In this document: in pieces, positions 5,486 to 64,000 of the stretch
How the letters are laid out: every line of letters begins with the position of its first letter
Numbering within the stretch: position 1 is the first letter of the stretch
Notes under the pieces: generated by a model
What the model was told of the DNA's origin: nothing
Databases searched by the model: none
Seen by the model: the letters and a program-made list of their open reading frames with translations, nothing else
Source of the DNA: Eledone cirrhosa
Taxonomy: Eukaryota
Direction of reading: 5' to 3'
Assembly: GCA_964016885.1 (NCBI GenBank)
Contig: OZ024741.1
Coordinates: 262,260,001-262,324,000, forward strand
DNA length: 64,000 bases
Translations under genes and position numbers: made by a program

Positions 5486-5554
5486 AAATAACAAATAGAC
5501 CCGGTTTCAAATCTCTATGCTTTTCAAATTCATTACATTAATCTTTATTTATAC
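5486..5554. repeat. AT-rich cassette, first copy, allele GAC-CC-GG (5 copies: 5486, 7134, 13433, 13723, 14477)
   Basis: Reads aaataacaaatagacccggtttcaaatc...tttatttatac. Confidence 0.95.
5544..5553 (-). promoter_or_regulatory. Overlapping TATAAATA (TATA-box consensus) and AATAAA (poly(A) hexamer) motifs in the cassette; present in all copies, function unproven
   Basis: The minus strand of the cassette begins GTATAAATAAAGATT. This is a motif match only, in 75% AT sequence. Confidence 0.2.
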
Positions 5555-8443
5555 GTTTTGCTTTACGTGTGTTTCGGCTTACGAGTGTCTCGACTTACGA
5601 GTGTTTTTACTTACGGGTGTTTCGACTTACGAGTGTTTTGCCCTACGAATGTTTTGACTTACGGGTGTTTCGGCTTACCAGTGTTTCGACTTACGAGTGT
5701 TTCGGCTTACGAGTGTTTCGACTTACTAAGGTTTTACTTACGAGTGTTTAGGCGTACGAGAGTTTTGACTTACGAGTGTTTCGACTTACAAGTGTTTCGA
5801 CTTACGAGTGTTTTGACTTACGAATGTTTTGACTTACGGGTGTTTCGGCTTACGGGTGTTTTGATTTACGGATGTTTCGACATACGAGTGTTTCGACTTA
5901 CGAGTGTTTCGACTTATGAGTGTTTCGACTTACGAGTGTTTCGACTTATGAGTGTTTCGGCTTACGAGTGTTTCGACTTACGAGTGTTTTGACTTACGGT
6001 GTTTCGGCTTACGAGTGTTTCGACTTACGAGTGTTTTAACTTACGGGTGTTTTGACATACGAGTGTTTCGACTAACTAATGTTTTTACTTACGAGTGTTT
6101 CTGCGTACGAGAGTTTGGACTTACGAGTGTTTCGACTTACGAGTGTTTCGACTTGCGAGCGTTTTGAATTACGAATGTTTCGACTTACGGGTGTTTCGGC
6201 TTACCAGTGTTTCGACTTACGAGTCTTTCGGCTTACGAGTGTTTCGACTTACTAATGTTTTTACTTACGAGTGTTTCGGCGTACGAGTGTTTCGACTTAC
6301 GAGTGTTTCGACTTACGGGTGTTTTGACTTACGGGTGTTTCGGCTTACGAGTGTTTCGACTTACGAGTGTTTTGACTTACGAGTGATCTGATTTACGGAT
6401 GTTTCGACATACGAGTGTTTCGACTTACGAGTGTTTCGACTTATGAGTATTTCGACTTACGAGTGTTTCGGCGTACGATTGTTTCGACTTACGAGTGTTT
6501 TAACTTACGAGTGTTTCGGCTTACGAGTGTTTCCGGCTTACGAGTGTTTCGACTTACGAGTGTTTTGACTTACGGTGTTTCGGCTTACGAGTGATTCGAC
6601 TTACGAGTGTTTTGACTTACGGGTGTTTTGACTTACGGGTGTTGTGAATTACGAGTGTTCCGATTTACGAGTGTTTTGACTTACGGTGTTTCGGCTTACG
6701 AGTGATTCGACTTACGAATGTTTTGACTTACGGGTGTTTCGGCTTGCGAGTGTTTCGACTTACGAGTGTTTCGGCTTGCGAGTGTTTCGACTTACTAATG
6801 TTTTTACTTACGAGTGTTTCGGCGTACGAGTGTTTCGACTTACGAGTGTTTCGACTTACTGGTGCTTTGACTTACGGGTGTTTCGGCTTACGAGTGTTTC
6901 GACTTACGAGTGTTTTGACTTAAGGGTGTTTCGACTTACGAGTGTTTCGACTTACGAGTGTTTCGACTTACGAGTGTTTCGGCTTACGAGTGTTTCGACA
7001 TACGAGTGTTTCGTCTTACGAGTGTTCCGACTAACGAGTGTTCCGACTTACGAGTGTTTCGGCTTACGAGTGTTTCGGCTTACGAGTGTTTCGACTTACG
7101 AGTGTTTCGGCTTACGAGTGTTTCGACTTACGAAAATAACAAATAGACCCGGTTTCAAATCTCTATGCTTTTCAAATTCATTACATTAATCTTTATTTAT
7201 ACGTTTCGCTTTACGAGTGTTTCGGCGTACGATTGTTTCGACTTACGAGTGTTTTAACTTACGTGTGTTTCGGCTTACGAGTGTTTCGACTTACGAGTGT
7301 TTTTACTTACGGTGTTTCGGCTTACGAGTGTTTCGACATACGAGTGTTTTGACTTACGGGTGTTTCGACTTACGAGTGTTTTGACTTACGAATGTTTTGA
7401 CTTACGGGTGTTTCGGCTTACCAGTGTTTCGACTTACGAGTGTTTCGGCTTACGAGTGTTTCGACTTACTAAGGTTTTTACTTACGAGTGTTTCGGCGTA
7501 CGAGTGTTTTGACTTACGAGTGTTTCGACTTACGAGTGTTTTCACTTACGAATGTTTTTCAGCTTACGGGTGTTTCGGCTTACGAGTGTTTCGACTTACG
7601 AGTGTTTCGGCTTGCGAGTGTTTCGACTTACTAATGTTTTTACTTACGAGTGTTTCGGCGTACGAGTGTTTCGACTTACGAGTGTTTCGACTTACGGGTG
7701 CTTTGACTTACGGGTGTTTCGACTTACGAGTGTTTCGACTTACGAGTGTTTTGACTTAAGGGTGTTTCGACTTACGAGTGTTTCGACTTACGAGTGTTTC
7801 GACTTACGAGTGTTTCGGCTTACAAGTGTTTTGACTTAAGTATGTTTCGACTTACGAGTGTTTCGATACGAATGTTTCGACTTACGAGTGTTCTGACTTA
7901 CGAGTGTTCTGATTTACGGATGTTTCGACATACGAGTGTTTCGACTTACGAGTGTTTCGACTTACGAGTGTTTTGACTTACGGGTGTTTTGACATACGAG
8001 TGTTTCGATACGAGTGTTTCGACTTACGAATGTTCTAACTTACGAGTGTTCTGACTTACGAGTGTTCTGACTTACGAGTGTTCTGACTTATGAGTGTTCT
8101 GACTTACGAGTGTTCCGACTTACGAGTGTTCCGACTTACGAGTGTTTCGGCATACGAGTGTTTCGGCTTACGAGTGTTTCGACTTACGAGTGTTTCGACT
8201 TACGAGTGTTCCGACTTACGGGTGCTTCGACATACGAGTGTTTGGGCTTACGGTGTTTCGGCTTACGAGTGTTTCGAGTTACGAGTGTTTTGACTTACGC
8301 GTGTTTTGACATACGAGTTTTTCGATACGAGTGTTCTGACTTACGAGTGTTCTGACTTACGAGTGTTCTGACTTACGAGTGTTCCGACTTTACGAGTGTT
8401 TCGGCTCACGAGTGTTTCGGCTTACGAGTGTTTCGACTTACGA

Positions 8444-8512
8444 AAATAACAAATAGACGCGGTTTCAAATCTCTATGCTTTTCAAATTCATTACATTAAT
8501 CTTTATTTATAC
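8444..8512. repeat. AT-rich cassette, allele GAC-GC-GG (17 copies; 8444, 15787, 24235 and most copies from 35845 onward)
   Basis: Reads aaatagacgcggtttc; preceded by the ccgactttacg/ggctcacg variant monomers. Confidence 0.95.
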
Positions 8513-9102
8513 GTTTCGCTTTACGAGTGTTTCGACATACGAGTGTTTCGACTTACGAATGTTTGTGCTTACGAGTGTTTCGGCTTACGAGTGTTCCGAC
8601 TTACGAGTGTTCCGACTTACGAGTGTTTCGGCTTACGAGTGTTTCCGGCTTACGAGTGTTTCGACTTACGGGTGTTTCGACTTACGAGTGTTTTGACTTA
8701 CGGTGTTTCGGCTTACGAGTGTTTTCAGCTTACGAGTGATTCGACTTACGAGTGTTTTGACTTACGGGTGTTTTGAGTTACGGGTGTTGTGAATTACGAG
8801 TGTTCAGATTTACGAGTGTTTTGACTTTCGGTGTTTCGGCTTACGAGTGATTCGACTTATGAGTATTTCGACTTACGAGTGTTTAGACTTACGAGTGTTT
8901 CGACTTACGAGTGTTCCGACTTACGAGTGTTTCGGCTTACGAGTGTTTCGGCTGACGAGTGTTTCGACATACGAGTGTTTCGACTTACGAGTGTTCCGAC
9001 TAACGAGTGTTCCGAGTTACGAGTGTTTCGGCTTACGAGTGTTTCGGCTTACGAGTGTTTCGACTTACGAGTGTTTCGGCTTACGAGTGTTTCGAATTAC
9101 GA

Positions 9103-9171
9103 AAATAACAAATAGACGGGGTTTCAAATCTCTATGCTTTTCAAATTCATTACATTAATCTTTATTTATAC
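9103..9171. repeat. AT-rich cassette, allele GAC-GG-GG (11 copies, 9103-33906; marks the 2273-bp HOR)
   Basis: Reads aaatagacggggtttc; always preceded by the ttcgaattacg variant. Confidence 0.95.
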
Positions 9172-11375
9172 GTTTCGCTTTACGAGTGTTTCGGCGTACG
9201 AGTGTTTCGACTTACGAGTGTTTTAACTTACGTGTGTTTCGGCTTATGAGTGTTTCGACTTACGAGTGTTTTTACTTACGGTGTTTCGGCTTACGAGTAT
9301 TTCGACATACGAGTGTTTTGACTTAAGAGTGTTTCGACTTACGAGTGTTTCGACTTACGAGTGTTTCGACTTACGAGTGTTTCGTCTTACGAGTGTTTTG
9401 ACTTAAGGATGTTTCGACTTACGAGAGTTTCGATACGAGTGTTTCGACTTACGAGTGTTTTGACTTACGGTGTGTCGGCTTACGAGTGTTTCGACTAACG
9501 AGTGTTTTGACTTACGGGTGTTTTGACATACGATTGTTTCGATACGAGTGTTCTGACTTACGAGTGTTCTGACTTACGTGTTTTGACTTACGAGTGTTCT
9601 GACTTACGAGTGTTCCGACTTACGAGTGTTCCGACTTACGAGTGTTTCGGCTTACGAGTGTTTCCGGCTTACGAGTGTTTCGACTTACGAGTGTTTTGAC
9701 TTACGGTGTTTCGGCTTACGAGTGATTCGACTTACGAATGTTTTGACTTACGGGTGTTTCGGCTTGCGAGTGTTTCGACTTACGAGTGTTTCGGCTTATG
9801 AGTGTTTCGACTTACTAATGTTTTTACTTACGAGTGTTTCGGCGTACGAGTGTTTTGACTTACGAGTGTTTCGACTTACGAGTGTTTTGACTTACGAATG
9901 TTTTGACTTACGGGTGTTTCGGCTTACGAGTGTTTCGACTTACGAGTGTTTCGGCTTGCGAGTGTTTCGACTTACTAATGTTTTTACTTAAGAGTGTTTC
10001 GGCGTACGAGTGTTTCGACTTACGAGTGTTTCGACTTACAGGTGCTTTGACTTAAGGGTGTTTCGACTTACGAGTGTTTCGACTTACGAGTGTTTCGACT
10101 TACGAGTGTTTCGGCTTACGAGTGTTTTGACTTAAGGATGTTTCGACTTACGAGTGTTTCGATACGAGTGTTTCGACTTACGAGTGTTTCGACTTACGAG
10201 TGTTTCGACTTACGAATGTTCTGACTTACGAGTGCTCTGACTTACGAGTGTTCTGATTTACGAGTGTTCTGACTTACGAGTGTTCTGACTTACGAGCGTT
10301 CTGATTTACGAGTGTTCCGACTTACGAGTGTTTCGGCTTACGAGTGTTTCGACATACGAGTGTTTCGACTTAGGAGTGTTCCGACTAACGAGTGTTCCGA
10401 CATACGGTGTTTCGGCTTACGAGTGATTCGACTTACGAGTGTTTTGACTTACGGGTGTTTTGACTTACGGGTGTTGTGAATTACGAGTGTTCCGATTTAC
10501 GAGTGTTTTGACCTACGGTGTTTCGGCTTACGAGTGTTTTCAGCTTACGAGTGATTCGACTTACGAGTGTTTTGACTTACGGGTGTTTTGACTTACGGGT
10601 GTTGTGAATTACGAGTGTTCCGATTTACGAGTGTTTTGACTTACGGTGTTTAGGCTTACGAGTGTTTCGATTTACGAGTGTTTCGGCTTATGAGTGTTTC
10701 GACTTACGAGTGTTTTGACTTACGGGTGTTTTGACATACGAGTGTTTCGACTGACGAGTGTTTCGATACGAGTGTTTCGACTTACGAGTGTTCTGACTTA
10801 CGAGTGTTCTGACTTACGAGTGTTCTGACTTACGAGTGTTCCGACTTACGAGTGTTCCGACTTACGAGTGTTTCGGCTTACGAGTGTTTCGGCTTACGAG
10901 TGTTTCGACTTACGAGTGTTTCGACTTACGAGTGTTCCGACTTACGGGTGTTTCGACTTACGAGTGTTTTGGCTTACGGTGTTTCGGCTTACGAGTGTTT
11001 CGAGTTACGAGTGTTTTGACTTACGCGTGTTTTGACATACGAGTGTTTCGATACGAGTGTTCTGACTTACGAGTGTTCCGATTTACGAGTGTTTTGACTT
11101 TCGGTGTTTCGGCTTACGAGTGATTCGACTTATGAGTATTTCGACTTACGAGTGTTTAGACTTACGAGTGTTTCGACTTACGAGTGTTCCGACTTACGAG
11201 TGTTTCGGCTTACGAGTGTTTCGGCTGACGAGTGTTTCGACATACGAGTGTTTCGACTTACGAGTGTTCCGACTAACGAGTGTTCCGACTTACGAGTGTT
11301 TCGGCTTACGAGTGTTTCTGCTTACGTGTGTTTCGACTTACGAGTGTTTCGGCTTACGAGTGTTTCGAATTACGA
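9103..11375 (+). repeat. 2273-bp higher-order repeat unit (about 138-140 monomers plus one cassette), first full copy
   Basis: Cassette-to-cassette distance 9103 to 11376 is 2273, with the same order of variant monomers as the later copies. Confidence 0.9.
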
Positions 11376-14300
11376 AAATAACAAATAGACGGGGTTTCAA
11401 ATCTCTATGCTTTTCAAATTCATTACATTAATCTTTATTTATACGTTTCGCTTTACGAGTGTTTCGGCGTACGAGTGTTTCGACTTACGAGTGTTTTAAC
11501 TTACGTGTGTTTCGGCTTACGAGTGTTTCGACTTACGAGTGTTTTTACTTACGGTGTTTCGGCTTACGAGTGTTTCGACATACGAGTGTTTTGACTTAAG
11601 AGTGTTTCGACTTACGAGTGTTTCGACTTACTAGTGTTTCGACTTACGAGTGTTTCGTCTTACGAGTGTTTTGACTTAAGGATGTTTCGACTTACGAGAG
11701 TTTCGATACGAGTGTTTCGACTTACGAGTGTTTTGACTTACGGTGTGTCGGCTTACGAGTGTTTCGACTTACGAGTGTTTTGACTTACGGGTGTTTTGAC
11801 ATACGATTGTTTCGATACGAGTGTTCTGACTTACGAGTGTTCTGACTTACGTGTTTTGACTTACGAGTGTTCTGACTTACGAGTGTTCCGACTTACGAGT
11901 GTTCCGACTTACGAGTGTTTCGGCTTACGAGTGTTTCCGGCTTACGAGTGTTTCGACTTACGAGTGTTTTGACTTACGGTGTTTCGGCTTACGAGTGATT
12001 CGACTTACGAATGTTTTGACTTACGGGTGTTTCGGCTTGCGAGTGTTTCGACTTACGAGTGTTTCGGCTTATGAGTGTTTAGACTTACTAATGTTTTTAC
12101 TTACGAGTGTTTCGGCGTACGAGTGTTTTGACTTACGAGTGTTTCGACTTACGAGTGTTTTGACTTACGAATGTTTTGACTTACGGGTGTTTCGGCTTAC
12201 GAGTGTTTCGACTTACGAGTGTTTCGGCTTGCGAGTGTTTCGACTTACTAATGTTTTTACTTAAGAGTGTTTCGGCTTACGAGTGTTTTGACTTACGGTG
12301 TTTCGGCTTACGAGTGTTTCGACTTACGAGTGTTTTAACTTACGGGTGTTTTGACATACGAGTGTTTCGACTAACTAATGTTTTTACTTACGAGTGTTTC
12401 TGCGTACGAGAGTTTGGACTTACGAGTGTTTCGACTTACGAGTGTTTCGACTTGCGAGCGTTTTGAATTACGAATGTTTCGACTTACGGGTGTTTCGGCT
12501 TACCAGTGTTTCGACTTACGAGTCTTTCGGCTTACGAGTGTTTCGACTTACTAATGTTTTTACTTACGAGTGTTTCGGCGTACGAGTGTTTCGACTTACG
12601 AGTGTTTCGACTTACGGGTGTTTTGACTTACGGGTGTTTCGGCTTACGAGTGTTTCGACTTACGAGTGTTTTGACTTACGAGTGATCTGATTTACGGATG
12701 TTTCGACATACGAGTGTTTCGACTTACGAGTGTTTCGACTTATGAGTATTTCGACTTACGAGTGTTTCGACTTACGAGTGTTTCGACTTACGAGTGTTCC
12801 GACTTACGAGTGTTTCGGCTTACGAGTGTTTCCGGCTTACGAGTGTTTCGACTTACGAGTGTTTTGACTTACGGTGTTTCGGCTTACGAGTGATTCGACT
12901 TACGAGTGTTTTGACTTACGGGTGTTTTGACTTACGGGTGTTGTGAATTACGAGTGTTCCGATTTACGAGTGTTTTGACTTACGGTGTTTCGGCTTACGA
13001 GTGATTCGACTTACGAATATTTTGACTTACGGGTGTTTCGGCTTGCGAGTGTTTCGACTTACGAGTGTTTCGGCTTGCGAGTGTTTCGACTTACTAATGT
13101 TTTTACTTACGAGTGTTTCGGCGTACGTGTGTTTCGACTTACGAGTGTTTCGACTTACTGGTGCTTTGACTTACGGGTGTTTCGGCTTACGAGTGTTTCG
13201 ACTTACGAGTGTTTTGACTTAAGGGTGTTTCGACTTACGAGTGTTTCGACTTACGAGTGTTTCGACTTACGAGTGTTTCGGCTTACGAGTGTTTCGACAT
13301 ACGAGTGTTTCGTCTTACGAGTGTTCCGACTAACGAGTGTTCCGACTTACGAGTGTTTCGGCTTACGAGTGTTTCGGCTTACGAGTGTTTCGACTTACGA
13401 GTGTTTCGGCTTACGAGTGTTTCGACTTACGAAAATAACAAATAGACCCGGTTTCAAATCTCTATGCTTTTCAAATTCATTACATTAATCTTTATTTATA
13501 CGTTTCGCTTTACGAGTGTTTCGGCGTACGATTGTTTCGACTTACGAGTGTTTTAACTTACGTGTGTTTCGGCTTACGAGTGTTTCGACTTACGAGTGTT
13601 TTTACTTACGGTGTTTCGGCTTACGAGTGTTTCGACATACGAGTGTTTTGACTTACGGGTGTTTCGGCTTACGAGTGTTTCGACTTACGAGTGTTTCGGC
13701 TTACGAGTGTTTCGACTTACGAAAATAACAAATAGACCCGGTTTCAAATCTCTATGCTTTTCAAATTCATTACATTAATCTTTATTTATACGTTTCGCTT
13801 TACGAGTGTTTCGGCGTACGATTGTTTCGACTTACGAGTGTTTTAACTTACGAGTGTTTCGGCTTACGAGTGTTTCCGGCTTACGAGTGTTTCGACTTAC
13901 GAGTGTTTTGACTTACGGTGTTTCGGCTTACGAGTGATTCGACTTACGAGTGTTTTGACTTACGGGTGTTTTGACTTACGGGTGTTGTGAATTACGAGTG
14001 TTCCGATTTACGAGTGTTTTGACTTACGGTGTTTCGGCTTACGAGTGATTCGACTTACGAATGTTTTGACTTACGGGTGTTTCGGCTTGCGAGTGTTTCG
14101 ACTTACGAGTGTTTCGGCTTGCGAGTGTTTCGACTTACTAATGTTTTTACTTACGAGTGTTTCGGCGTACGAGTGTTTCGACTTACGAGTGTTTCGACTT
14201 ACTGGTGCTTTGACTTACGGGTGTTTCGGCTTACGAGTGTTTCGACTTACGAGTGTTTTGACTTAAGGGTGTTTCGACTTACGAGTGTTTCGACTTACGA

Positions 14301-16445
14301 GTGTTTCGACTTACGAGTGTTTCGGCTTACGAGTGTTTCGACATACGAGTGTTTCGTCTTACGAGTGTTCCGACTAACGAGTGTTCCGACTTACGAGTGT
14401 TTCGGCTTACGAGTGTTTCGGCTTACGAGTGTTTCGACTTACGAGTGTTTCGGCTTACGAGTGTTTCGACTTACGAAAATAACAAATAGACCCGGTTTCA
14501 AATCTCTATGCTTTTCAAATTCATTACATTAATCTTTATTTATACGTTTCGCTTTACGAGTGTTTCGGCGTACGATTGTTTCGACTTACGAGTGTTTTAA
14601 CTTACGTGTGTTTCGGCTTACGAGTGTTTCGACTTACGAGTGTTTTTACTTACGGTGTTTCGGCTTACGAGTGTTTCGACATACGAGTGTTTTGACTTAC
14701 GGGTGTTTCGACTTACGAGTGTTTTGACTTACGAATGTTTTGACTTACGGGTGTTTCGGCTTACCAGTGTTTCGACTTACGAGTGTTTCGGCTTACGAGT
14801 GTTTCGACTTACTAAGGTTTTTACTTACGAGTGTTTCGGCGTACGAGTGTTTTGACTTACGAGTGTTTCGACTTACGAGTGTTTTCACTTACGAATGTTT
14901 TTCAGCTTACGGGTGTTTCGGCTTACGAGTGTTTCGACTTACGAGTGTTTCGGCTTGCGAGTGTTTCGACTTACTAATGTTTTTACTTACGAGTGTTTCG
15001 GCGTACGAGTGTTTCGACTTACGAGTGTTTCGACTTACGGGTGCTTTGACTTACGGGTGTTTCGACTTACGAGTGTTTCGACTTACGAGTGTTTTGACTT
15101 AAGGGTGTTTCGACTTACGAGTGTTTCGACTTACGAGTGTTTCGACTTACGAGTGTTTCGGCTTACAAGTGTTTTGACTTAAGTATGTTTCGACTTACGA
15201 GTGTTTCGATACGAATGTTTCGACTTACGAGTGTTCTGACTTACGAGTGTTCTGATTTACGGATGTTTCGACATACGAGTGTTTCGACTTACGAGTGTTT
15301 CGACTTACGAGTGTTTTGACTTACGGGTGTTTTGACATACGAGTGTTTCGATACGAGTGTTTCGACTTACGAATGTTCTAACTTACGAGTGTTCTGACTT
15401 ACGAGTGTTCTGACTTACGAGTGTTCTGACTTATGAGTGTTCTGACTTACGAGTGTTCCGACTTACGAGTGTTCCGACTTACGAGTGTTTCGGCATACGA
15501 GTGTTTCGGCTTACGAGTGTTTCGACTTACGAGTGTTTCGACTTACGAGTGTTCCGACTTACGGGTGCTTCGACATACGAGTGTTTGGGCTTACGGTGTT
15601 TCGGCTTACGAGTGTTTCGAGTTACGAGTGTTTTGACTTACGCGTGTTTTGACATACGAGTTTTTCGATACGAGTGTTCTGACTTACGAGTGTTCTGACT
15701 TACGAGTGTTCTGACTTACGAGTGTTCCGACTTTACGAGTGTTTCGGCTCACGAGTGTTTCGGCTTACGAGTGTTTCGACTTACGAAAATAACAAATAGA
15801 CGCGGTTTCAAATCTCTATGCTTTTCAAATTCATTACATTAATCTTTATTTATACGTTTCGCTTTACGAGTGTTTCGACATACGAGTGTTTCGACTTACG
15901 AATGTTTGTGCTTACGAGTGTTTCGGCTTACGAGTGTTCCGACTTACGAGTGTTCCGACTTACGAGTGTTTCGGCTTACGAGTGTTTCCGGCTTACGAGT
16001 GTTTCGACTTACGGGTGTTTCGACTTACGAGTGTTTTGACTTACGGTGTTTCGGCTTACGAGTGTTTTCAGCTTACGAGTGATTCGACTTACGAGTGTTT
16101 TGACTTACGGGTGTTTTGAGTTACGGGTGTTGTGAATTACGAGTGTTCAGATTTACGAGTGTTTTGACTTTCGGTGTTTCGGCTTACGAGTGATTCGACT
16201 TATGAGTATTTCGACTTACGAGTGTTTAGACTTACGAGTGTTTCGACTTACGAGTGTTCCGACTTACGAGTGTTTCGGCTTACGAGTGTTTCGGCTGACG
16301 AGTGTTTCGACATACGAGTGTTTCGACTTACGAGTGTTCCGACTAACGAGTGTTCCGAGTTACGAGTGTTTCGGCTTACGAGTGTTTCGGCTTACGAGTG
16401 TTTCGACTTACGAGTGTTTCGGCTTACGAGTGTTTCGAATTACGA

Positions 16446-22400: not shown

Positions 22401-23184
22401 CTTACGGGTGTTGTGAATTACGAGTGTTCCGATTTACGAGTGTTTTGACTTACGGTGTTTAGGCTTACGAGTGTTTCGATTTACGAGTGTTTCGGCTTAT
22501 GAGTGTTTCGACTTACGAGTGTTTTGACTTACGGGTGTTTTGACATACGAGTGTTTCGACTGACGAGTGTTTCGATACGAGTGTTTCGACTTACGAGTGT
22601 TCTGACTTACGAGTGTTCTGACTTACGAGTGTTCTGACTTACGAGTGTTCCGACTTACGAGTGTTCCGACTTACGAGTGTTTCGGCTTACGAGTGTTTCG
22701 GCTTACGAGTGTTTCGACTTACGAGTGTTTCGACTTACGAGTGTTCCGACTTACGGGTGTTTCGACTTACGAGTGTTTTGGCTTACGGTGTTTCGGCTTA
22801 CGAGTGTTTCGAGTTACGAGTGTTTTGACTTACGCGTGTTTTGACATACGAGTGTTTCGATACGAGTGTTCTGACTTACGAGTGTTCCGATTTACGAGTG
22901 TTTTGACTTTCGGTGTTTCGGCTTACGAGTGATTCGACTTATGAGTATTTCGACTTACGAGTGTTTAGACTTACGAGTGTTTCGACTTACGAGTGTTCCG
23001 ACTTACGAGTGTTTCGGCTTACGAGTGTTTCGGCTGACGAGTGTTTCGACATACGAGTGTTTCGACTTACGAGTGTTCCGACTAACGAGTGTTCCGACTT
23101 ACGAGTGTTTCGGCTTACGAGTGTTTCTGCTTACGTGTGTTTCGACTTACGAGTGTTTCGGCTTACGAGTGTTTCGAATTACGA
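16446..23184 (+). repeat. HOR array: 2273 + 2273 + 2193 bp
   Basis: Cassette starts 16446, 18719, 20992, 23185. The third unit lacks 80 bp (5 monomers) near 21960. Confidence 0.92.
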
Positions 23185-33800: not shown

Positions 33801-33905
33801 GACTAACGAGTGTTCCGACTTACGAGTGTTTCGGCTTACGAGTGTTTCTGCTTACGTGTGTTTCGACTTACGAGTGTTTCGGCTTACGAGTGTTTCGAAT
33901 TACGA
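24894..33905 (+). repeat. HOR array: 2273 x3 + 2193 bp, followed by a truncated unit to ~35750
   Basis: Cassette starts 24894, 27167, 29440, 31713, 33906. The same 80-bp deletion is near 32680, and the next unit has a further 48-bp deletion near 34535. Confidence 0.92.
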
Positions 33906-38939: not shown

Positions 38940-39008
38940 AAATAACAAATAGACGTGGTTTCAAATCTCTATGCTTTTCAAATTCATTACATTAATCTTT
39001 ATTTATAC
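38940..39008. repeat. AT-rich cassette, allele GAC-GT-GG (5 copies: 38940, 43245, 46926, 51368, 56229)
   Basis: Reads aaatagacgtggtttc; always preceded by the gactcacg variant. Confidence 0.95.
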
Positions 39009-54000: not shown

Positions 54001-57000
54001 TTGACATACGAGTGTTTCGACTGACGAGTGTTTCGATACGAGTGTTTCGACTTACGAGTGTTCTGACTTACGAGTGTTCTGACTTACGAGTGTTCTGACT
54101 TACGAGTGTTCCGACTTACGAGTGTTCCGACTTACGAGTGTTTCGGCTTACGAGTGTTTCGGCTTACGAGTGTTTCGACTTACGAGTGTTTCGACTTACG
54201 AGTGTTCCGACTTACGGGTGTTTCGACTTACGAGTGTTTTGGCTTACGGTGTTTCGGCTTACGAGTGTTTCGAGTTACGAGTGTTTTGACTTACGCGTGT
54301 TTTGACATACGAGTGTTTCGATACGAGTGTTCTGACTTACGAGTGTTCTGACTTACGAGTGTTCCGACTTTACGAGTGTTTCGGCTCACGAGTGTTTCGG
54401 CTTACGAGTGTTTCGACTTACGAAAATAACAAATAGACGCGGTTTCAAATCTCTATGCTTTTCAAATTCATTACATTAATCTTTATTTATACGTTTCGCT
54501 TTACGAGTGTTTCGACTTACGAGTGTTTCGGCTTACGTGAGTTTCGACTTAAGAGTGTTCTGATTTACGAGTGTTCTGACTTGCGGGTGTTCTGATTTAC
54601 GAGTGTTCCGACTTACGAGGGTTCTGACTTACGAGTGTTCCGAATTACGAGTGTTTCGGCTATGAGTGTTTCGACTTATGGGTGCTTCGACTTACGAGTG
54701 TTTTTACTTACGGTGTTTCGGCTTACGAGTGTTTCGACATACGAGTGTTTTGACTTACGGGTGTTTCGACTTACGAGTGTTTTGACTTACGAATGTTTTT
54801 ACTTACGGGTGTTTCGGCTTACGAGTGTTTCGACTTACGAGTGTTTCGGCTTACGAGTGTTTCGACTTACTAATGTTTTTACTTACGAGTGTTTCGGCGT
54901 ACGAGAGTTTTGACTTACGAGTGTTTCGACTTACGAGTGTTCTGACTTACGAGTGTTCCGAGTTACGAGTGTTCCGACTTACGAGTGTTTCGGCTTACGA
55001 GTGTTTCGGCTTACGAGTGTTTCGCCTTACGAGTGTTCCGACTTACGGGTGCTTCGACTTACGAGTGTTTGGGCTTACGGTATTTCGGCTTACGAGTGTT
55101 TCGAGTTACGAGTGTTTTGACTTACGCGTGTTTTGACATACGAGTTTTTCGATACGAGTGTTCTTACTTACGAGTGTTCTGATTACGAGTGTTCTGACTT
55201 ACGAGTGTTCCGACTTTACGAGTGTTTCGGCTCACGAGTGTTTCGGCTTACGAGTGTTTCGACTTACGAAAATAACAAATAGACGCGGTTTCAAATCTCT
55301 ATGCTTTTCAAATTCATTACATTAATCTTTATTTATACGTTTCGCTTTACGAGTGTTTCGACTTACGAGTGTTTCGACATACGAGTGTTTCGACTTACGA
55401 ATGTTTTTGCTTACGAGTGTTTCGGCTTACGAGTGTTCCGACTTACGAGTGTTTCGGCTTACGAGTGTTTCCGGCTTACGAGTGTTTCGACTTACGGGTG
55501 TTTCGACTCACGAGTGTTCTGATTTACGAGTGTTCTGACTTGCGGGTGTTCTGATTTACGAGTGTTCCGACTTACGAGGGTTCTGACTTACGAGTGTTCC
55601 GACTTACGAGTGTTTCGGCTATGAGTGTTTCGACTTATGGGTGTTTCGACTTACGAGTGTTTTTACTTACGGTGTTTCGGCTTACGAGTGTTTCGACATA
55701 CGAGTGTTTTGACTTACGGGTGTTTCGACTTACGAGTGTTTTGACTTACGAATGTTTTGACTTACGGGTGTTTCGGCTTACGAGTGTTTCGACTTACGAG
55801 TGTTTCGGCTTACGAGTGTTTCGACTTACTAATGTTTTTACTTACGAGTGTTTCGGCGTACGAGAGTTTTGACTTACGAGTGTTTCGACTTACGAGTGTT
55901 CTGACTTACGAGTGTTGCGACTTACGAGTGTTCCGACTTACGAGTGTTTCGGCTTACGAGTGTTTCGGCTTACGAGTGTTTCGCCTTACGAGTGTTCCGA
56001 CTTACGGGTGCTTCGACTTACGAGTGTTTGGGCTTACGGTATTTCGGCTTACGAGTGTTTCGAGTTACGAGTGTTTTGACTTACGCGTGATTTGACATAC
56101 GAGTTTTTCGATACGAGTGTTCTGACTTACGAGTGTTCTGATTACGAGTGTTCTGACTTACGAGTGTTCCGACTTTACGAGTGTTTCGGCTCACGAGTGT
56201 TTCGGCTTACGAGTGTTTCGACTCACGAAAATAACAAATAGACGTGGTTTCAAATCTCTATGCTTTTCAAATTCATTACATTAATCTTTATTTATACGTT
56301 TCGCTTTACGAGTGTTTCGACTTACGAGTGTTTCGACATACGAGTGTTTCGACTTACGAATGTTTTTGCTTACGAGTGTTTCGGCTTACGAGTGTTCCGA
56401 CTTACGAGTGTTCCGACTTACGAGTGTTTCGGCTTACGAGTGTTTCCGGCTTACGAGTGTTTTGACTTACGGGTGTTTTGACTTACGGGTGTTTCGGCTT
56501 ACGAGTTTTTCGACTTACGAGTGTTTTGACTTACGAGTGATCTGATTTACGGATGTTTCGACATACGAGTGTTTCGACTTACGAGTGTTTCGACTTACGA
56601 GTGTTCCGACTTACGAGTGTTTCGGCTTACGAGTGTTTTGGGTTACGAGTGTTTCGACATACGAGTGTTTCGACTTACGAGTGTTCCGACTAACGAGTGT
56701 TCCGACTTACGAGTGTTTCGGCTTACGAGTGTTTCGGCTTACCAGTGTTTCGACTTACGAGTGTTTTAACTTACGTGTGTTTCGGCTTACGAGTGTTTCG
56801 ACTTACCAGTGTTTTTACTTACGGTGTTTCGGCTTACGAGTGTTTCGACATACGAGTGTTTTGACTTAAGGGTGTTTCGACTTACGAGTGTTTCGACTTA
56901 CGAGTGTTTCGGCTTACGAGTGTTTTGACTTAAGGATGTTTCGACTTACGAGTGTTTCGATACGAGTGTTTCGACTTACGAGTGTTTTGACTTACGCTGT

Positions 57001-58680
57001 GTCGGCTTACGAGTGTTTCGACTTACGAGTGTTTTGACTTACGGGTGTTTTGACATACGATTGTTTCGATACGAGTGTTCTGACTTACGAGTGTTCTGAC
57101 TTACGTGTTTTGACTTACGAGTGTTCTGACTTACGAGTGTTCCGACTTACGAGTGTTCCGACTTACGAGTGTTTCGGCTTACGAGTGTTTCCGGCTTACG
57201 AGTGTTTCGACTTACGAGTGTTTTGACTTACGGTGTTTCGGCTTACGAGTGATTCGACTTACGAATGTTTTGACTTACGGGTGTTTCGGCTTGCGAGTGT
57301 TTCGACTTACGAGTGTTTCGGCTTATGAGTGTTTCGACTTACTAATGTTTTTACTTACGAGTGTTTCGGCGTACGAGTGTTTTGACTTACGAGTGTTTCG
57401 ACTTACGAGTGTTTTGACTTACGAATGTTTTGACTTACGGGTGTTTCGACTTACGAGTGTTTCGACTTACGAGTGTTTCGGCTTGCGAGTGTTCCGACTT
57501 ACTAATGTTTTTACTTAAGAGTGTTTCGGCGTACGAGTGTTTCGACTTACGAGTGTTTCGACTTACGGGTGCTTTGACTTAAGGGTGTTTCGACTTACGA
57601 GTGTTTCGACTTACGAGTGTTTCGGCTTACGAGTGTTTTGACTTAAGGATGTTTCGACTTACGAGTGTTTCGATACGAGTGTTTCGACTTACGAGTGTTT
57701 CGACTTACGAGTGTTTCGACTTACGAATGTTCTGACTTACGAGTGCTCTGACTTACGAGTGTTCTGATTTACGAGTGTTCTGACTTACGAGTGTTCTGAC
57801 TTACGAGCGTTCTGATTTACGAGTGTTCCGACTTACGAGTGTTTCGGCTTACGAGTGTTTCGACATACGAGTGTTTCGACTTAGGAGTGTTCCGACTAAC
57901 GAGTGTTCCGACATACGGTGTTTCGGCTTACGAGTGATTCGACTTACGAGTGTTTTGACTTACGGGTGTTTTGACTTACGGGTGTTGTGAATTACGAGTG
58001 TTCCGATTTACGAGTGTTTTGACTTACGGTGTTTCGGCTTACGAGTGTTTTCAGCTTACGAGTGATTCGACTTACGAGTGTTTTGACTTACGGGTGTTTT
58101 GACTTACGGGTGTTGTGAATTACGAGTGTTCCGATTTACGAGTGTTTTGACTTACGGTGTTTAGGCTTACGAGTGTTTCGATTTACGAGTGTTTCGGCTT
58201 ATGAGCGTTTCGACTTACGAGTGTTTTGACTTACGGGTGTTTTGACATACGAGTGTTTCGACTGACGAGTGTTTCGATACGAGTGTTTCGACTTACGAGT
58301 GTTCTGACTTACGAGTGTTCTGACTTACGAGTGTTCTGACTTACGAGTGTTCCGACTTACGAGTGTTCCGACTTACGAGTGTTTCGGCTTACGAGTGTTT
58401 CGGCTTACGAGTGTTTCGACTTACGAGTGTTTCGACTTACGAGTGTTCCGACTTAGGGGTGTTTCGACTTACGAGTGTTTTGGCTTACGGTGTTTCGGCT
58501 TACGAGTGTTTCGAGTTACGAGTGTTTTGACTTACGCGTGTTTTGACATACGAGTGTTTCGATACGAGTGTTCTGACTTACGAGTGTTCTGACTTACGAG
58601 TGTTCTGACTTACGAGTGTTCCGACTTTACGAGTGTTTCGGCTCACGAGTGTTTCGGCTTACGAGTGTTTCGACTTACGA

Positions 58681-61600
58681 AAATAACAAATAGACGCGGT
58701 TTCAAATCTCTATGCTTTTCAAATTCATTACATTAATCTTTATTTATACGTTTCGCTTTACGAGTGTTTCGACTTACGAGTGTTTCGGCTTACGTGAGTT
58801 TCGACTTAAGAGTGTTCTGATTTACGAGTGTTCTGACTTGCGGGTGTTCTGATTTACGAGTGTTCCGACTTACGAGGGTTCTGACTTACGAGTGTTCCGA
58901 ATTACGAGTGTTTCGGCTATGAGTGTTTCGACTTATGGGTGTTTCGACTTACGAGTGTTTTTACTTACGGTGTTTCGGCTTACGAGTGTTTCGACATACG
59001 AGTGTTTTGACTTACGGGTGTTTCGACTTACGAGTGTTTTGACTTACGAATGTTTTTACTTACGGGTGTTTCGGCTTACGAGTGTTTCGACTTACGAGTG
59101 TTTCGGCTTACGAGTGTTTCGACTTACTAATGTTTTTACTTACGAGTGTTTCGGCGTACGAGAGTTTTGACTTACGAGTGTTTCGACTTATGAGTGTTCT
59201 GACTTACGAGTGTTCCGAGTTACGAGTGTTCCGACTTACGAGTGTTTCGGCTTACGAGTGTTTCGGCTTACGAGTGTTTCGCCTTACGAGTGTTCCGACT
59301 TACGGGTGCTTCGACTTACGAGTGTTTGGGCTTACGGTATTTCGGCTTACGAGTGTTTCGAGTTACGAGTGTTTTGACTTACGCGTGTTTTGACATACGA
59401 GTTTTTCGATACGAGTGTTCTTACTTACGAGTGTTCTGATTACGAGTGTTCTGACTTACGAGTGTTCCGACTTTACGAGTGTTTCGGCTCACGAGTGTTT
59501 CGGCTTACGAGTGTTTCGACTTACGAAAATAACAAATAGACGCGGTTTCAAATCTCTATGCTTTTCAAATTCATTACATTAATCTTTATTTATACGTTTC
59601 GCTTTACGAGTGTTTCGACTTACGAGTGTTTCGACATACGAGTGTTTCGACTTACGAATGTTTTTGCTTACGAGTGTTTCGGCTTACGAGTGTTCCGACT
59701 TACGAGTGTTTCGGCTTACGAGTGTTTCCGGCTTACGAGTGTTTCGACTTACGGGTGTTTCGACTCACGAGTGTTCTGATTTACGAGTGTTCTGACTTGC
59801 GGGTGTTCTGATTTACGAGTGTTCCGACTTACGAGGGTTCTGACTTACGAGTGTTCCGACTTACGAGTGTTTCGGCTATGAGTGTTTCGACTTATGGGTG
59901 TTTCGACTTACGAGTGTTTTTACTTACGGTGTTTCGGCTTACGAGTGTTTCGACATACGAGTGTTTCGACTTACGAGTGTTTCGACTTACGAATGTTCTG
60001 ACTTACGAGTGCTCTGACTTACGAGTGTTCTGATTTACGAGTGTTCTGACTTACGAGTGTTCTGACTTACGAGCGTTCTGATTTACGAGTGTTCCGACTT
60101 ACGAGTGTTTCGGCTTACGAGTGTTTCGGCATACGAGTGTTTCGACTTAGGAGTGTTCCGACTAACGAGTGTTCCGACATACGGTGTTTCGGCTTACGAG
60201 TGATTCGACTTACGAGTGTTTTGACTTACGGGTGTTTTGACTTACGGGTGTTGTGAATTACGAGTGTTCCGATTTACGAGTGTTTTGACTTACGGTGTTT
60301 CGGCTTACGAGTGTTTTCAGCTTACGAGTGATTCGACTTACGAGTGTTTTGACTTACGGGTGTTTTGACTTACGGGTGTTGTGAATTACGAGTGTTCCGA
60401 TTTACGAGTGTTTTGACTTACGGTGTTTAGGCTTACGAGTGTTTCGATTTACGAGTGTTTCGGCTTATGAGCGTTTCGACTTACGAGTGTTTTGACTTAC
60501 GCGTGTTTTGACATACGAGTGTTTCGACTGACGAGTGTTTCGATACGAGTGTTTCGACTTACGAGTGTTCTGACTTACGAGTGTTCTGACTTACGAGTGT
60601 TCTGACTTACGAGTGTTCCGACTTACGAGTGTTCCGACTTACGAGTGTTTCGGCTTACGAGTGTTTCGGCTTACGAGTGTTTCGACTTACGAGTGTTTCG
60701 ACTTACGAGTGTTCCGACTTACGGGTGTTTCGACTTACGAGTGTTTTGGCCTACGGTGTTTCGGCTTACGAGTGTTTCGAGTTACGAGTGTTTTGACTTA
60801 CGCGTGTTTTGACATACGAGTGTTTCGATACGAGTGTTCTGACTTACGAGTGTTCTGACTTACGAGTGTTCTGACTTACGAGTGTTCCGACTTTACGAGT
60901 GTTTCGGCTCACGAGTGTTTCGGCTTACGAGTGTTTCGACTTACGAAAATAACAAATAGACGCGGTTTCAAATCTCTATGCTTTTCAAATTCATTACATT
61001 AATCTTTATTTATACGTTTCGCTTTACGAGTGTTTCGACTTACGAGTGTTTCGGCTTACGTGAGTTTCGACTTAAGAGTGTTCTGATTTACGAGTGTTCT
61101 GACTTGCGGGTGTTCTGATTTACGAGTGTTCCGACTTACGAGGGTTCTGACTTACGAGTGTTCCGAATTACGAGTGTTTCGGCTATGAGTGTTTCGACTT
61201 ATGGGTGTTTCGACTTACGAGTGTTTTTACTTACGGTGTTTCGGCTTACGAGTGTTTCGACATACGAGTGTTTTGACTTACGGGTGTTTCGACTTACGAG
61301 TGTTTTGACTTACGAATGTTTTTACTTACGGGTGTTTCGGCTTACGAGTGTTTCGACTTACGAGTGTTTCGGCTTACGAGTGTTTCGACTTACTAATGTT
61401 TTTACTTACGAGTGTTTCGGCGTACGAGAGTTTTGACTTACGAGTGTTTCGACTTATGAATGTTCTGACTTACGAGTGTTCCGAGTTACGAGTGTTCCGA
61501 CTTACGAGTGTTTCGGCTTACGAGTGTTTCGGCTTACGAGTGTTTCGCCTTACGAGTGTTCCGACTTACGGGTGCTTCGACTTACGAGTGTTTGGGCTTA

Positions 61601-63212
61601 CGGTATTTCGGCTTACGAGTGTTTCGAGTTACGAGTGTTTTGACTTACGCGTGTTTTGACATACGAGTTTTTCGATACGAGTGTTCTTACTTACGAGTGT
61701 TCTGATTACGAGTGTTCTGACTTACGAGTGTTCCGACTTTACGAGTGTTTCGGCTCACGAGTGTTTCGGCTTACGAGTGTTTCGACTTACGAAAATAACA
61801 AATAGACGCGGTTTCAAATCTCTATGCTTTTCAAATTCATTACATTAATCTTTATTTATACGTTTCGCTTTACGAGTGTTTCGACTTACGAGTGTTTCGA
61901 CATACGAGTGTTTCGACTTACGAATGTTTTTGCTTACGAGTGTTTCGGCTTACGAGTGTTCCGACTTACGAGTGTTTCGGCTTACGAGTGTTTCCGGCTT
62001 ACGAGTGTTTCGACTTACGGGTGTTTCGACTCACGAGTGTTCTGATTTACGAGTGTTCTGACTTGCGGGTGTTCTGATTTACGAGTGTTCCGACTTACGA
62101 GGGTTCTGACTTACGAGTGTTCCGACTTACGAGTGTTTCGGCTATGAGTGTTTCGACTTATGGGTGTTTCGACTTACGAGTGTTTTTACTTACGGTGTTT
62201 CGGCTTACGAGTGTTTCGACATACGAGTGTTTCGACTTACGAGTGTTTCGACTTACGAATGTTCTGACTTACGAGTGCTCTGACTTACGAGTGTTCTGAT
62301 TTACGAGTGTTCTGACTTACGAGTGTTCTGACTTACGAGCGTTCTGATTTACGAGTGTTCCGACTTACGAGTGTTTCGGCTTACGAGTGTTTCGGCATAC
62401 GAGTGTTTCGACTTAGGAGTGTTCCGACTAACGAGTGTTCCGACATACGGTGTTTCGGCTTACGAGTGATTCGACTTACGAGTGTTTTGACTTACGGGTG
62501 TTTTGACTTACGGGTGTTGTGAATTACGAGTGTTCCGATTTACGAGTGTTTTGACTTACGGTGTTTCGGCTTACGAGTGTTTTCAGCTTACGAGTGATTC
62601 GACTTACGAGTGTTTTGACTTACGGGTGTTTTGACTTACGGGTGTTGTGAATTACGAGTGTTCCGATTTACGAGTGTTTTGACTTACGGTGTTTAGGCTT
62701 ACGAGTGTTTCGATTTACGAGTGTTTCGGCTTATGAGCGTTTCGACTTACGAGTGTTTTGACTTACGCGTGTTTTGACATACGAGTGTTTCGACTGACGA
62801 GTGTTTCGATACGAGTGTTTCGACTTACGAGTGTTCTGACTTACGAGTGTTCTGACTTACGAGTGTTCTGACTTACGAGTGTTCCGACTTACGAGTGTTC
62901 CGACTTACGAGTGTTTCGGCTTACGAGTGTTTCGGCTTACGAGTGTTTCGACTTACGAGTGTTTCGACTTACGAGTGTTCCGACTTACGGGTGTTTCGAC
63001 TTACGAGTGTTTTGGCTTACGGTGTTTCGGCTTACGAGTGTTTCGAGTTACGAGTGTTTTGACTTACGCGTGTTTTGACATACGAGTGTTTCGATACGAG
63101 TGTTCTGACTTACGAGTGTTCTGACTTACGAGTGTTCTGACTTACGAGTGTTCCGACTTTACGAGTGTTTCGGCTCACGAGTGTTTCGGCTTACGAGTGT
63201 TTCGACTTACGA
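58681..63212 (+). repeat. 2266-bp HOR (846 + 1420 bp), two full copies, continuing to the window end
   Basis: 58681 to 60947 to 63213 and 59527 to 61793 are all 2266 apart; ORF landmarks at 58347/60613/62879 share this offset. Confidence 0.9.
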
Positions 63213-64000
63213 AAATAACAAATAGACGCGGTTTCAAATCTCTATGCTTTTCAAATTCATTACATTAATCTTTATTTATACGTTTCGCTTTACGAGTGTT
63301 TCGACTTACGAGTGTTTCGGCTTACGTGAGTTTCGACTTAAGAGTGTTCTGATTTACGAGTGTTCTGACTTGCGGGTGTTCTGATTTACGAGTGTTCCGA
63401 CTTACGAGGGTTCTGACTTACGAGTGTTCCGAATTACGAGTGTTTCGGCTATGAGTGTTTCGACTTATGGGTGCTTCGACTTACGAGTGTTTTTACTTAC
63501 GGTGTTTCGGCTTACGAGTGTTTCGACATACGAGTGTTTTGACTTACGGGTGTTTCGACTTACGAGTGTTTTGACTTACGAATGTTTTTACTTACGGGTG
63601 TTTCGGCTTACGAGTGTTTCGACTTACGAGTGTTTCGGCTTACGAGTGTTTCGACTTACTAATGTTTTTACTTACGAGTGTTTCGGCGTACGAGAGTTTT
63701 GACTTACGAGTGTTTCGACTTACGAGTGTTCTGACTTACGAGTGTTGCGACTTACGAGTGTTCCGACTTACGAGTGTTTCGGCTTACGAGTGTTTCGGCT
63801 TACGAGTGTTTCGACTTACGAGTGTTCCGACTTACGGGTGCTTCGACTTACGAGTGTTTGGGCTTACGGTATTTCGGCTTACGAGTGTTTCGAGTTACGA
63901 GTGTTTTGACTTACGCGTGTTTTGACATACGAGTTTTTCGATACGAGTGTTCTGACTTACGAGTGTTCTGATTACGAGTGTTCTGACTTACGAGTGTTCC

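What the first reader, a model, noticed from the sequence alone, without database searches (positions are those of the whole stretch)
5486..63281. A near-invariant 69-bp AT-rich cassette punctuates the satellite every 0.3-3.6 kb
Seen: 38 copies in the same orientation and at the same monomer phase (replacing the GT of CTTACGA-GT-GTTTCG), with no target-site duplication. By eye they are identical at 67 of 69 positions, while neighbouring monomers often differ from consensus. Every HOR type right of 5.5 kb (2273, 846, 1403, 2266 and the 3.7-4.9-kb units) retains at least one complete cassette, and I saw no truncated copy. Inference: one ancestral insertion spread by array recombination. It is either a passive hitch-hiker or a functional punctuation element (protein-binding box, nucleosome-depleted site or transcription signal), analogous in role but not sequence to the CENP-B box of alpha satellite. 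Intact copies are also expected if recombination occurs only within monomers.
Basis: partly seen in the sequence, partly recalled or inferred. Interest (0 to 1): 0.75.

Follow-up and report, generated by a model that had tools for sequence, protein, structure and literature searches.

The report
Trapped Helitron fragment inside its satellite
The 69-base block that punctuates this 16-base satellite is a piece of a small rolling-circle transposon that carries the same repeat, likely trapped by one duplication as the satellite grew out of that transposon and likely a passenger rather than a centromere-like signal.

Summary
Observation confirmed: 38 copies, one orientation and phase, 67/69 columns invariant. 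It is not an insertion into the satellite. The cassette is the native spacer just 5' of the 16-bp repeats of a young (~1% diverged), ~515-bp non-autonomous Helitron-like element dispersed in the genome. A variant lacking 8 bp reproduces the cassette; its 5' end occurs four times, each heading a satellite array, including this window's. A complete 2.65-kb intermediate exists. One monomer-to-cassette duplication junction was then amplified (2,132 exact hits). Cassettes do change ~2.5-fold less than neighbouring monomers, but so do the unique flank and trapped 3' arms. Most excess is shuffling of common monomer alleles. Across 194 array copies, 28/69 columns vary; deleted copies and cassette-free higher-order repeats exist; other arrays are punctuated by the 3' arm instead. 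Likely neutral passenger; a CENP-B-like role is unsupported but chromatin is untested. Satellites from Helitron central repeats are known, and the scan noted this origin on two nearby windows. Unexplained: bulk monomers are ~8% from the founder type versus ~1% for the cassette.

The parts
1..64000 (+). 16-bp satellite array (TRF consensus TGTTTCGACTTACGAG, ~4016 periods); expanded central repeat of a non-autonomous Helitron-like element whose 5' end heads the array about 217 kb upstream (G000:C2:262,043,169)
   Evidence: continuity sampled, not read in full (L078, L099, L064, L050, L054)
1..5484 (+). cassette-free satellite stretch
5485..5553 (+). cassette (17G>C haplotype)
7133..7201 (+). cassette (17G>C)
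8443..8511 (+). cassette (founder/transposon haplotype)
9102..9170 (+). cassette (18C>G)
11375..11443 (+). cassette (18C>G)
13432..13500 (+). cassette (17G>C)
13722..13790 (+). cassette (17G>C)
14476..14544 (+). cassette (17G>C)
15786..15854 (+). cassette (founder haplotype)
16445..16513 (+). cassette (18C>G)
18718..18786 (+). cassette (18C>G)
20991..21059 (+). cassette (18C>G)
23184..23252 (+). cassette (18C>G)
24234..24302 (+). cassette (founder haplotype)
24893..24961 (+). cassette (18C>G)
27166..27234 (+). cassette (18C>G)
29439..29507 (+). cassette (18C>G)
31712..31780 (+). cassette (18C>G)
33905..33973 (+). cassette (18C>G)
35844..35912 (+). cassette (founder haplotype)
37247..37315 (+). 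cassette (founder haplotype)
38093..38161 (+). cassette (founder haplotype)
38939..39007 (+). cassette (18C>T)
41439..41507 (+). cassette (founder haplotype)
42285..42353 (+). cassette (founder haplotype)
43244..43312 (+). cassette (18C>T)
46079..46147 (+). cassette (founder haplotype)
46925..46993 (+). cassette (18C>T)
50521..50589 (+). cassette (founder haplotype)
51367..51435 (+). cassette (18C>T)
54423..54491 (+). cassette (founder haplotype)
55269..55337 (+). cassette (founder haplotype)
56228..56296 (+). cassette (18C>T)
58680..58748 (+). cassette (founder haplotype)
59526..59594 (+). cassette (founder haplotype)
60946..61014 (+). cassette (founder haplotype)
61792..61860 (+). cassette (founder haplotype)
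63212..63280 (+). cassette (founder haplotype)

Best explanation
The cassette is the stretch that lies directly 5' of the 16-bp repeats in a small Helitron-like transposon of this genome; it was likely trapped inside the array by one tandem duplication in the founder copy and likely spread since as a neutral passenger of in-register recombination. Steps: (1, shown) ~515-bp dispersed elements read 5' TC, a short microsatellite, the cassette, usually 3-4 monomers, an AT-rich arm, a hairpin and CTAG. (2, shown) A variant lacking 8 bp has the cassette's exact start, and all four of its 5' ends head satellite arrays. (3, inferred) In that copy the monomers expanded, and one illegitimate join (1-nt microhomology) put a monomer in front of a second copy of the cassette. 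(4, inferred) Unequal exchange and conversion, which pair monomer with monomer or cassette with cassette, then copied or removed whole cassettes. This gives the fixed phase, fixed orientation, lack of a target-site duplication and near-identity. (5, inferred) The cassette looks conserved because the family is young, because it is CpG-poor, and because it cannot pick up variants from out-of-register neighbours as monomers do.
For: 51 of 53 dispersed loci fetched hold the element, with cassette plus 3-14 monomers. There are 184 exact transposon-type junctions, 94 forward and 90 reverse, versus 2,132 satellite-type junctions; the 100 listed all lie in three arrays. The 8-bp-shorter 5' end occurs 4 times and 4 of 4 head arrays. 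Two related elements carry the 8 bp, so its loss is derived. A complete 2,647-bp element on C4 has the 5' end, two internal satellite-type cassettes, the 3' arm and CTAG. All 9 array-trapped 3' arms examined share one derived allele, pointing to one founder. Dispersed copies with 7 and 14 monomers show early expansion. Divergence: array cassettes 0.84% non-CpG and 5.7% CpG (194 copies); dispersed-copy cassettes 0.7%, arms 1.0% (45 copies); trapped arms 0.3-1.8%. Between three segmental duplicates, unique flank differs 0-0.4%, 5' end plus cassette 0-0.8% and monomers 1.3-2.3%. 248 of 440 sister-pair monomer differences involve the 12 commonest alleles; the rest run at 0.67% versus 0.61% in cassettes. 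3 of 31 10-kb blocks lack cassettes, and cassette-free HORs of 2773 and 2830 bp exist. 88 of 100 derived 3' arms lie in the same C2 domain as a second kind of punctuation. Deleted cassettes exist.
Against: Cassettes differ less than held-out orthologous monomers in sister pairs (59/9729 = 0.61% versus 463/30574 = 1.51%; pairs not independent), also at non-CpG sites (0.57% versus 1.25%). Corrected for the number of possible alleles, even rare monomer alleles run somewhat higher (0.81%; mid-frequency 1.1%). Bulk monomers lie ~8% from the founder type, and 5-6% even in the small arrays. Shuffling alone does not predict this if all parts are equally old. 28 of 31 blocks keep cassettes. No autonomous partner with matching ends was found in 32 loci. 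No chromatin, methylation or protein data were examined.
Confidence: 0.87

Rival explanations
1. Same transposon origin, but the cassette has been co-opted as a functional punctuation mark (protein-binding box or nucleosome-depleted site) of a young chromosome-specific, possibly centromeric, domain and is kept by selection.
For: Cassettes change about 2.5-fold less than flanking monomers and lie ~1% versus ~8% from the founder type. 28 of 31 sampled blocks carry them. The satellite forms a domain of roughly 8 Mb in mid-contig on C2.
Against: The same low divergence holds for unique flank, trapped 3' arms and dispersed copies. 28 of 69 columns vary, spread along the length. 11- and 12-bp deletions occur, the latter at three loci. 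Cassette-free HORs and 10-kb blocks exist. Density ranges 0-8 per 10 kb with no regular spacing. 78 of 78 hits of one rare monomer variant are on C2, so the repeat does not look pan-centromeric in this assembly (one variant only, and it may be lineage-biased).
Confidence: 0.06
2. An older, already diverged satellite was captured by, or recombined with, a young Helitron copy through the shared monomers, so the transposon parts (cassette, arms) are younger than the monomer pool.
For: It would explain ~8% monomer versus ~1% cassette and arm divergence. The 2.65-kb C4 element has ~6% monomers but a 0.4% arm. Filler capture by Helitrons is discussed in PMC7492417 (passages). The C1 array has no transposon ends.
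Against: The commonest monomers equal the transposon's own monomers. The C1 array carries the same junction and cassette. No cassette-free array unrelated to the founder lineage was found among the blocks sampled. Even so, the cassette would still be a transposon-derived passenger.
Confidence: 0.05
3. The repeated cassettes were produced directly by aborted rolling-circle replication (repeated 5' parts, one 3' end) rather than by later host recombination.
For: Arrays have many cassettes between a single 5' end and a 3' arm. This mechanism is described for plant Helitrons in review PMC12628747 (passages). The genome holds many Rep/helicase sequences (3,704 candidates, 150 scored).
Against: The internal junction starts about 60 nt inside the element, not at the 5' TC. 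Unit lengths vary from 243 bp to kilobases, and nested HORs point to ongoing unequal exchange. At most it could have made the first junction.
Confidence: 0.02

Closest known systems
Cg_HINE elements of Crassostrea gigas with satellite-like central repeats (PMC7492417; 12 passages read)
   Same: Non-autonomous rolling-circle element with a 5' microsatellite, a spacer of variable length before the first repeat (the position the cassette occupies), central tandem repeats in fixed orientation and a 3' palindrome; central repeats related to a classical satellite.
   Different: Cg_HINEs are Helentrons with subTIRs and 100-500-bp monomers in short arrays. Here there are TC/CTAG ends, no subTIRs, a 16-bp monomer and megabase arrays that still carry the spacer periodically.
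DINE-1 / DINE-TR1 central repeats giving rise to satellites in Drosophila (DINE-1 structure from PMC4067079 passages; Dias et al. 2015 seen only as a reference title)
   Same: Satellite born from the central repeat of a non-autonomous rolling-circle element.
   Different: DINE-1 is a Helentron (subTIRs, TT target). Periodic retention of the 5' spacer inside the array was not seen in the passages read.
Canonical non-autonomous Helitrons (definition in PMC4067079, passage)
   Same: 5' TC, 3' CTAG, GC-rich palindrome ending 11 nt from the end, no target-site duplication.
   Different: The hairpin extends to a 17-bp stem that includes the CTAG. The base before the 5' TC is usually G because the element is joined to an upstream module. 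No autonomous partner was found.
Helitron-associated 'intermediate' arrays and tandem truncated Helitrons (review PMC12628747; 12 passages read)
   Same: Arrays with Helitron parts on one side only (as at C2:241 Mb) or with tandemized element parts (3' arm HORs at C2:257-261 Mb).
   Different: The repeated internal piece here starts inside the element, not at its 5' end.
CENP-B box of alpha satellite (recalled, no call)
   Same: A recurrent motif at a fixed phase in a satellite.
   Different: The CENP-B box is part of the monomer, regularly spaced and found on most chromosomes. This cassette is non-monomer transposon DNA, irregularly spaced, dispensable in HORs and concentrated on one contig.

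Membership tests
Canonical non-autonomous Helitron (source element) | 5' TC terminus | tested here: met
   47 of 51 element-bearing loci start with the same TC-led 5-mer
Canonical non-autonomous Helitron (source element) | 3' CTRR terminus | tested here: met
   48 of 51 end in CTAG
Canonical non-autonomous Helitron (source element) | 16-20-nt palindrome about 11 bp from the 3' end | tested here: met
   The 15-nt GC-rich core ends 11 nt before the end, inside a 17-bp stem of -17.9 kcal/mol; longer than the textbook form
Canonical non-autonomous Helitron (source element) | no target-site duplication | tested here: met
   0 of 45 full copies have a direct flank repeat of 3 nt or more; the true 5' end may lie further upstream
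Canonical non-autonomous Helitron (source element) | insertion between A and T | tested here: inconclusive
   T follows in 48 of 48, but the preceding base is G in 35, A in 11 and T in 1 of 47; most copies are joined to a shared upstream module. Empty sites were not examined
Canonical non-autonomous Helitron (source element) | autonomous Rep/helicase partner sharing the ends | tested here: inconclusive
   PF14214 is abundant (3,704 candidates, 150 scored), but none of 32 loci examined carried matching ends
Helentron/HINE (DINE-1, Cg_HINE) | subterminal inverted repeats of 11-15 bp | tested here: not met
   Longest inverted match between the first and last 70 nt is 6 nt of TA repeat
Helentron/HINE (DINE-1, Cg_HINE) | TT target, T-flanked ends | tested here: not met
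   Ends are TC...CTAG; the preceding base is T in 1 of 47
Helentron/HINE (DINE-1, Cg_HINE) | 5' microsatellite, central tandem repeats, 3' palindrome | tested here: met
Satellite derived from transposon central repeats | monomer present as a short array inside dispersed elements | tested here: met
   3-14 monomers in 51 of 51 elements
Satellite derived from transposon central repeats | long arrays bounded by element ends in native order; intermediates exist | tested here: met
   4 of 4 founder 5' ends head arrays; complete 2.65-kb element; arrays ending in the 3' arm. The C1 array has no ends
CENP-B-box-like functional box | conserved beyond neutral non-monomer DNA of the same age | tested here: not met
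   Equal to unique flank, trapped arms and dispersed copies
CENP-B-box-like functional box | retained regularly in HORs and on most chromosomes | tested here: not met
   Cassette-free HORs and blocks; satellite concentrated on C2 with small arrays on C1 and C4. The genome-wide list of junctions was cut at 100 of 2,132
CENP-B-box-like functional box | bound by a protein or marked in chromatin | not testable with these tools
   No ChIP, ATAC or methylation data available

The most novel reading that the evidence does not exclude
The trapped cassette and 3' arms act as built-in neutral clocks. They show that 16-bp monomers of the same founder diverged about 7-fold faster (about 8% versus 1%), more than shuffling of existing variants can give. 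Short-period satellites would then be mutagenic to themselves during expansion, or would preferentially keep imperfect monomers. This locus, with every stage from 3 monomers to megabases preserved, would let that be measured directly. A bolder and much less likely extension (about 0.05) is that the cassette has been co-opted as a protein-binding box of a newborn centromere on C2.
Probability: 0.3. Interest if true: 0.58.

Novelty: new member of a known kind. Interest (0 to 1): 0.3.

Why it matters
It removes a tempting false lead: a 'near-invariant box' in a satellite can be a young transposon fragment that merely cannot exchange variants with its neighbours, and the right control is other non-monomer DNA of the same age. 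It also gives an unusually complete record of satellite birth in one genome: 3-4 monomers in dispersed elements, 7 and 14 monomers, a 2.65-kb element with the duplication junction, and a domain of roughly 8 Mb still headed by the element's 5' end. The cassette haplotypes are useful markers for array history and for measuring how fast monomers change.

Tried and rejected
Fuzzy regex scan timed out; replaced by BLAST. Insertion-into-satellite model: rejected because the right junction is native to the element. Homology of the cassette to the 5' cores of neighbouring Helitron-like families: not significant in 9 of 9 comparisons against 300 shuffles (best p about 0.12). Structured RNA or DNA: the cassette folds at -0.1 kcal/mol; Rfam on L079 gave 21 sub-gathering hits, 19 on the flanking TA/CA microsatellite and none on a cassette. 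Autonomous partner: no matching ends in 32 Rep/helicase loci; only a small sample of 3,704 candidates. Cross-species conservation: the look-up of sequencing runs listed 24 runs, 20 with a share of the words and none with half; no RNA holder was listed, which is no evidence on expression. Six runs were laid in two calls. One shows very high depth across satellite, cassette and the 8-bp-longer form. Five runs with other organism labels show satellite pieces, and in some the junction, at depth of about 2-10. Trace carry-over and true sharing cannot be told apart, so this is not used as evidence. C4 beyond 114.05 Mb and C2 beyond 263.2 Mb: sampled blocks had no satellite. Earlier-findings look-ups: none near the window and one irrelevant 2-word match. 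Paper searches: Helitron + octopus + satellite DNA + centromere listed two general reviews only; the four-term central-repeat search listed two reviews. These are listings and cannot show that this satellite is undescribed. No supplements were consulted.
Full report
Observation. The window is one 16-bp tandem array of about 4,016 periods. BLAST with one cassette finds 38 full-length, ungapped copies, all on the + strand, 290-3596 bp apart; they are the only non-satellite stretches. 67 of 69 columns are invariant, and both variable columns lie in the cassette's single CpG run. The 48 adjacent monomer sites are almost as uniform here (5 distinct changes versus 3 in the cassette), so the window alone cannot show constraint.

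Source of the cassette. The window lies at G000:C2:262.26-262.32 Mb in a 3.0-Gb assembly. That it is an octopod rests on my recall of a flanking SINE-like repeat and on earlier AI notes and was not tested. A 32-nt core has 1,541 exact matches (reversed control 0), many of them isolated. I fetched 53 isolated loci (13; 40 from among the first 100 of 184 places listed). 51 hold a ~515-bp element: 5' TC, short GTCT-type microsatellite, the cassette, 16-bp monomers (12 copies with about 3, 35 with 4, 2 with 5, one with 7, one with 14), an AT-rich arm, a 17-bp hairpin and CTAG. Two loci hold a related family. The ends fit the canonical Helitron definition (PMC4067079, passage): TC start in 47 of 51, CTAG end in 48 of 51, no target-site duplication in 0 of 45 full copies, and no subTIRs. 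The A|T target is unclear, because most copies are joined to a shared upstream module. The genome is rich in Helitron Rep/helicase sequence, but I found no autonomous partner in 32 loci. In 45 full copies (6 dropped for damaged ends) divergence from consensus is 0.56% in the 5' end, 0.70% in the cassette, 1.0% in the arm and 1.7% in the monomers, with CpG sites about 3-6-fold higher. The family is young.

From element to satellite. The dispersed element shares 64 of the 69 bp and continues natively into the first monomer, so the right junction is not an insertion junction. A variant lacking 8 bp supplies the remaining 5 bp exactly. Its 5' end occurs 4 times in the genome, and each heads an array: C2:254.735, 257.768 and 262.043 Mb (three segmental duplicates of one locus, the last heading this window's array as far as sampled) and C4:114.054 Mb. 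The related family carries the 8 bp, so the loss is derived. The C4 copy is a complete 2,647-bp element with two internal monomer-to-cassette junctions and the 3' arm. Arrays at C2:240.96 and 258.94 Mb run into the 3' arm. All 9 trapped arms examined share one derived allele. The internal junction has 2,132 exact matches; the 100 listed are all in arrays. It joins a monomer to a point about 60 nt inside the element with 1 nt of microhomology. I infer one illegitimate tandem duplication followed by in-register unequal exchange. That accounts for orientation, phase, absence of a target-site duplication and whole-or-nothing copying. In Arabidopsis centromeres, indels add or remove whole repeat units and point changes are about tenfold higher through non-allelic conversion (bioRxiv 10.1101/2025.06.02.657473, abstract only).

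Is it constrained? Of 202 cassette hits in array loci, 194 were scored; 4 element-5' copies, 2 edge-cut copies and 2 deletion copies were set aside. 28 of 69 columns vary, and mean divergence is 0.84% at non-CpG and 5.7% at CpG sites, about 1.1% overall by my arithmetic, no lower than in dispersed copies. Copies with 1-, 11- and 12-bp deletions exist, the last at three loci. But between the three segmental duplicates the unique upstream flank differs at 0-0.4%, the element 5' end plus cassette at 0-0.8% and the monomers at 1.3-2.3%; trapped arms are 0.3-1.8% from consensus. So the monomers are fast; the cassette is not slow. 248 of 440 monomer differences involve the 12 commonest pool alleles, and the rest run at 0.67%, close to the cassette; corrected per possible allele, rare ones run at 0.81% and mid-frequency ones at 1.1%. 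3 of 31 10-kb array blocks have no cassette, and HORs of 2773 and 2830 bp lack it. The 2830-bp HOR is punctuated instead by 811 bp of 3' arm and flank, and 88 of 100 derived arms lie in C2:256.6-261.7 Mb, many about 3 kb apart (26 of 30 fetched loci in satellite). Whatever element DNA touched the monomers was carried along. All 78 matches of one rare monomer variant are at C2:254.7-262.9 Mb, with small arrays on C1 and C4, so the satellite does not look pan-centromeric in this assembly; C2 alone could still be centromeric.

What remains unexplained. Bulk monomers average about 8% from the founder type (17,637 gap-free monomers; 5-6% in the small arrays) against about 1% for cassette and arms. 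Four alleles account for most of this and may be early jackpots, but about 3% remains by my arithmetic. Conversion shuffles variants without raising mean distance from the founder. So monomer-specific mutagenesis, preferential survival of imperfect monomers, or capture of an older array remain open. None of these needs the cassette to have a function.

Known kinds and novelty. Satellites from central repeats of non-autonomous rolling-circle elements are described in oyster (PMC7492417, 12 passages), where the left flank also ends in a microsatellite and a spacer before the first repeat. They are reviewed in PMC9659126 and PMC12628747 (12 passages each). This is a new member of that kind, with Helitron rather than Helentron ends. 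Two earlier AI notes on windows about 3.3 Mb upstream reached the same origin for this satellite; I saw them after my own tests, and they are not independent support. My paper searches did not list a description of this satellite, but they cannot search by sequence.

Verdict. The feature is real and is a transposon remnant, likely a neutral passenger (0.87). A co-opted box is unlikely (0.06) but chromatin is untested. Interest 0.3.

Noticed in passing
L011-L023, L100-L139 (dispersed element copies): The element's 3' CTAG is followed by TCT in 45 of 48 copies, usually what looks like the 5' start of various other Helitron-like elements; this suggests targeting of other Helitrons' starts.
   Followed up: partly
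L079/L080 (G000:C4:114.052-114.054 Mb): Complete 2,647-bp expanded element with three cassettes: an intermediate between the 515-bp element and the megabase arrays, or a re-mobilised derivative.
   Followed up: yes
L075, L052, L067, L177-L201 (G000:C2:256.6-261.7 Mb): Arrays punctuated about every 3 kb by the element's 3' arm plus the start of the next element; one 2830-bp HOR has no cassette.
   Followed up: yes
window and array loci, monomer position 5-6: At one CpG of the monomer C>T is at 33% but G>A at 0.9%; decay is strongly asymmetric between strands or is an early jackpot.
   Followed up: no
G000:C2:257.8-263 Mb: Array blocks change orientation (+ at 257.8-258.3, - at 258.9-260.2, + from 260.3 Mb), and three blocks share the same unique upstream flank.
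   Followed up: partly
L057, L058 (G000:C1:279.297-279.393 Mb): A ~96-kb array with no element ends, wedged between two other tandem repeats (a TTAG-rich short repeat and a ~22-24-bp repeat).
   Followed up: no
G000:C20 3.5-5.2 Mb, C27 13-15.5 Mb, C19, C16: Near-identical Helitron Rep hits recur at roughly 100-150-kb spacing, suggesting very large tandem units.
   Followed up: no
L048 (G000:C2:86.72 Mb): Local cluster of several partial and full copies of the element and its 3' arm.
   Followed up: no
runs X2-X5, X8: Satellite pieces, and in some runs the monomer-to-cassette junction, occur at depth of about 2-10 in runs with other organism labels; carry-over or real sharing not resolved.
   Followed up: partly
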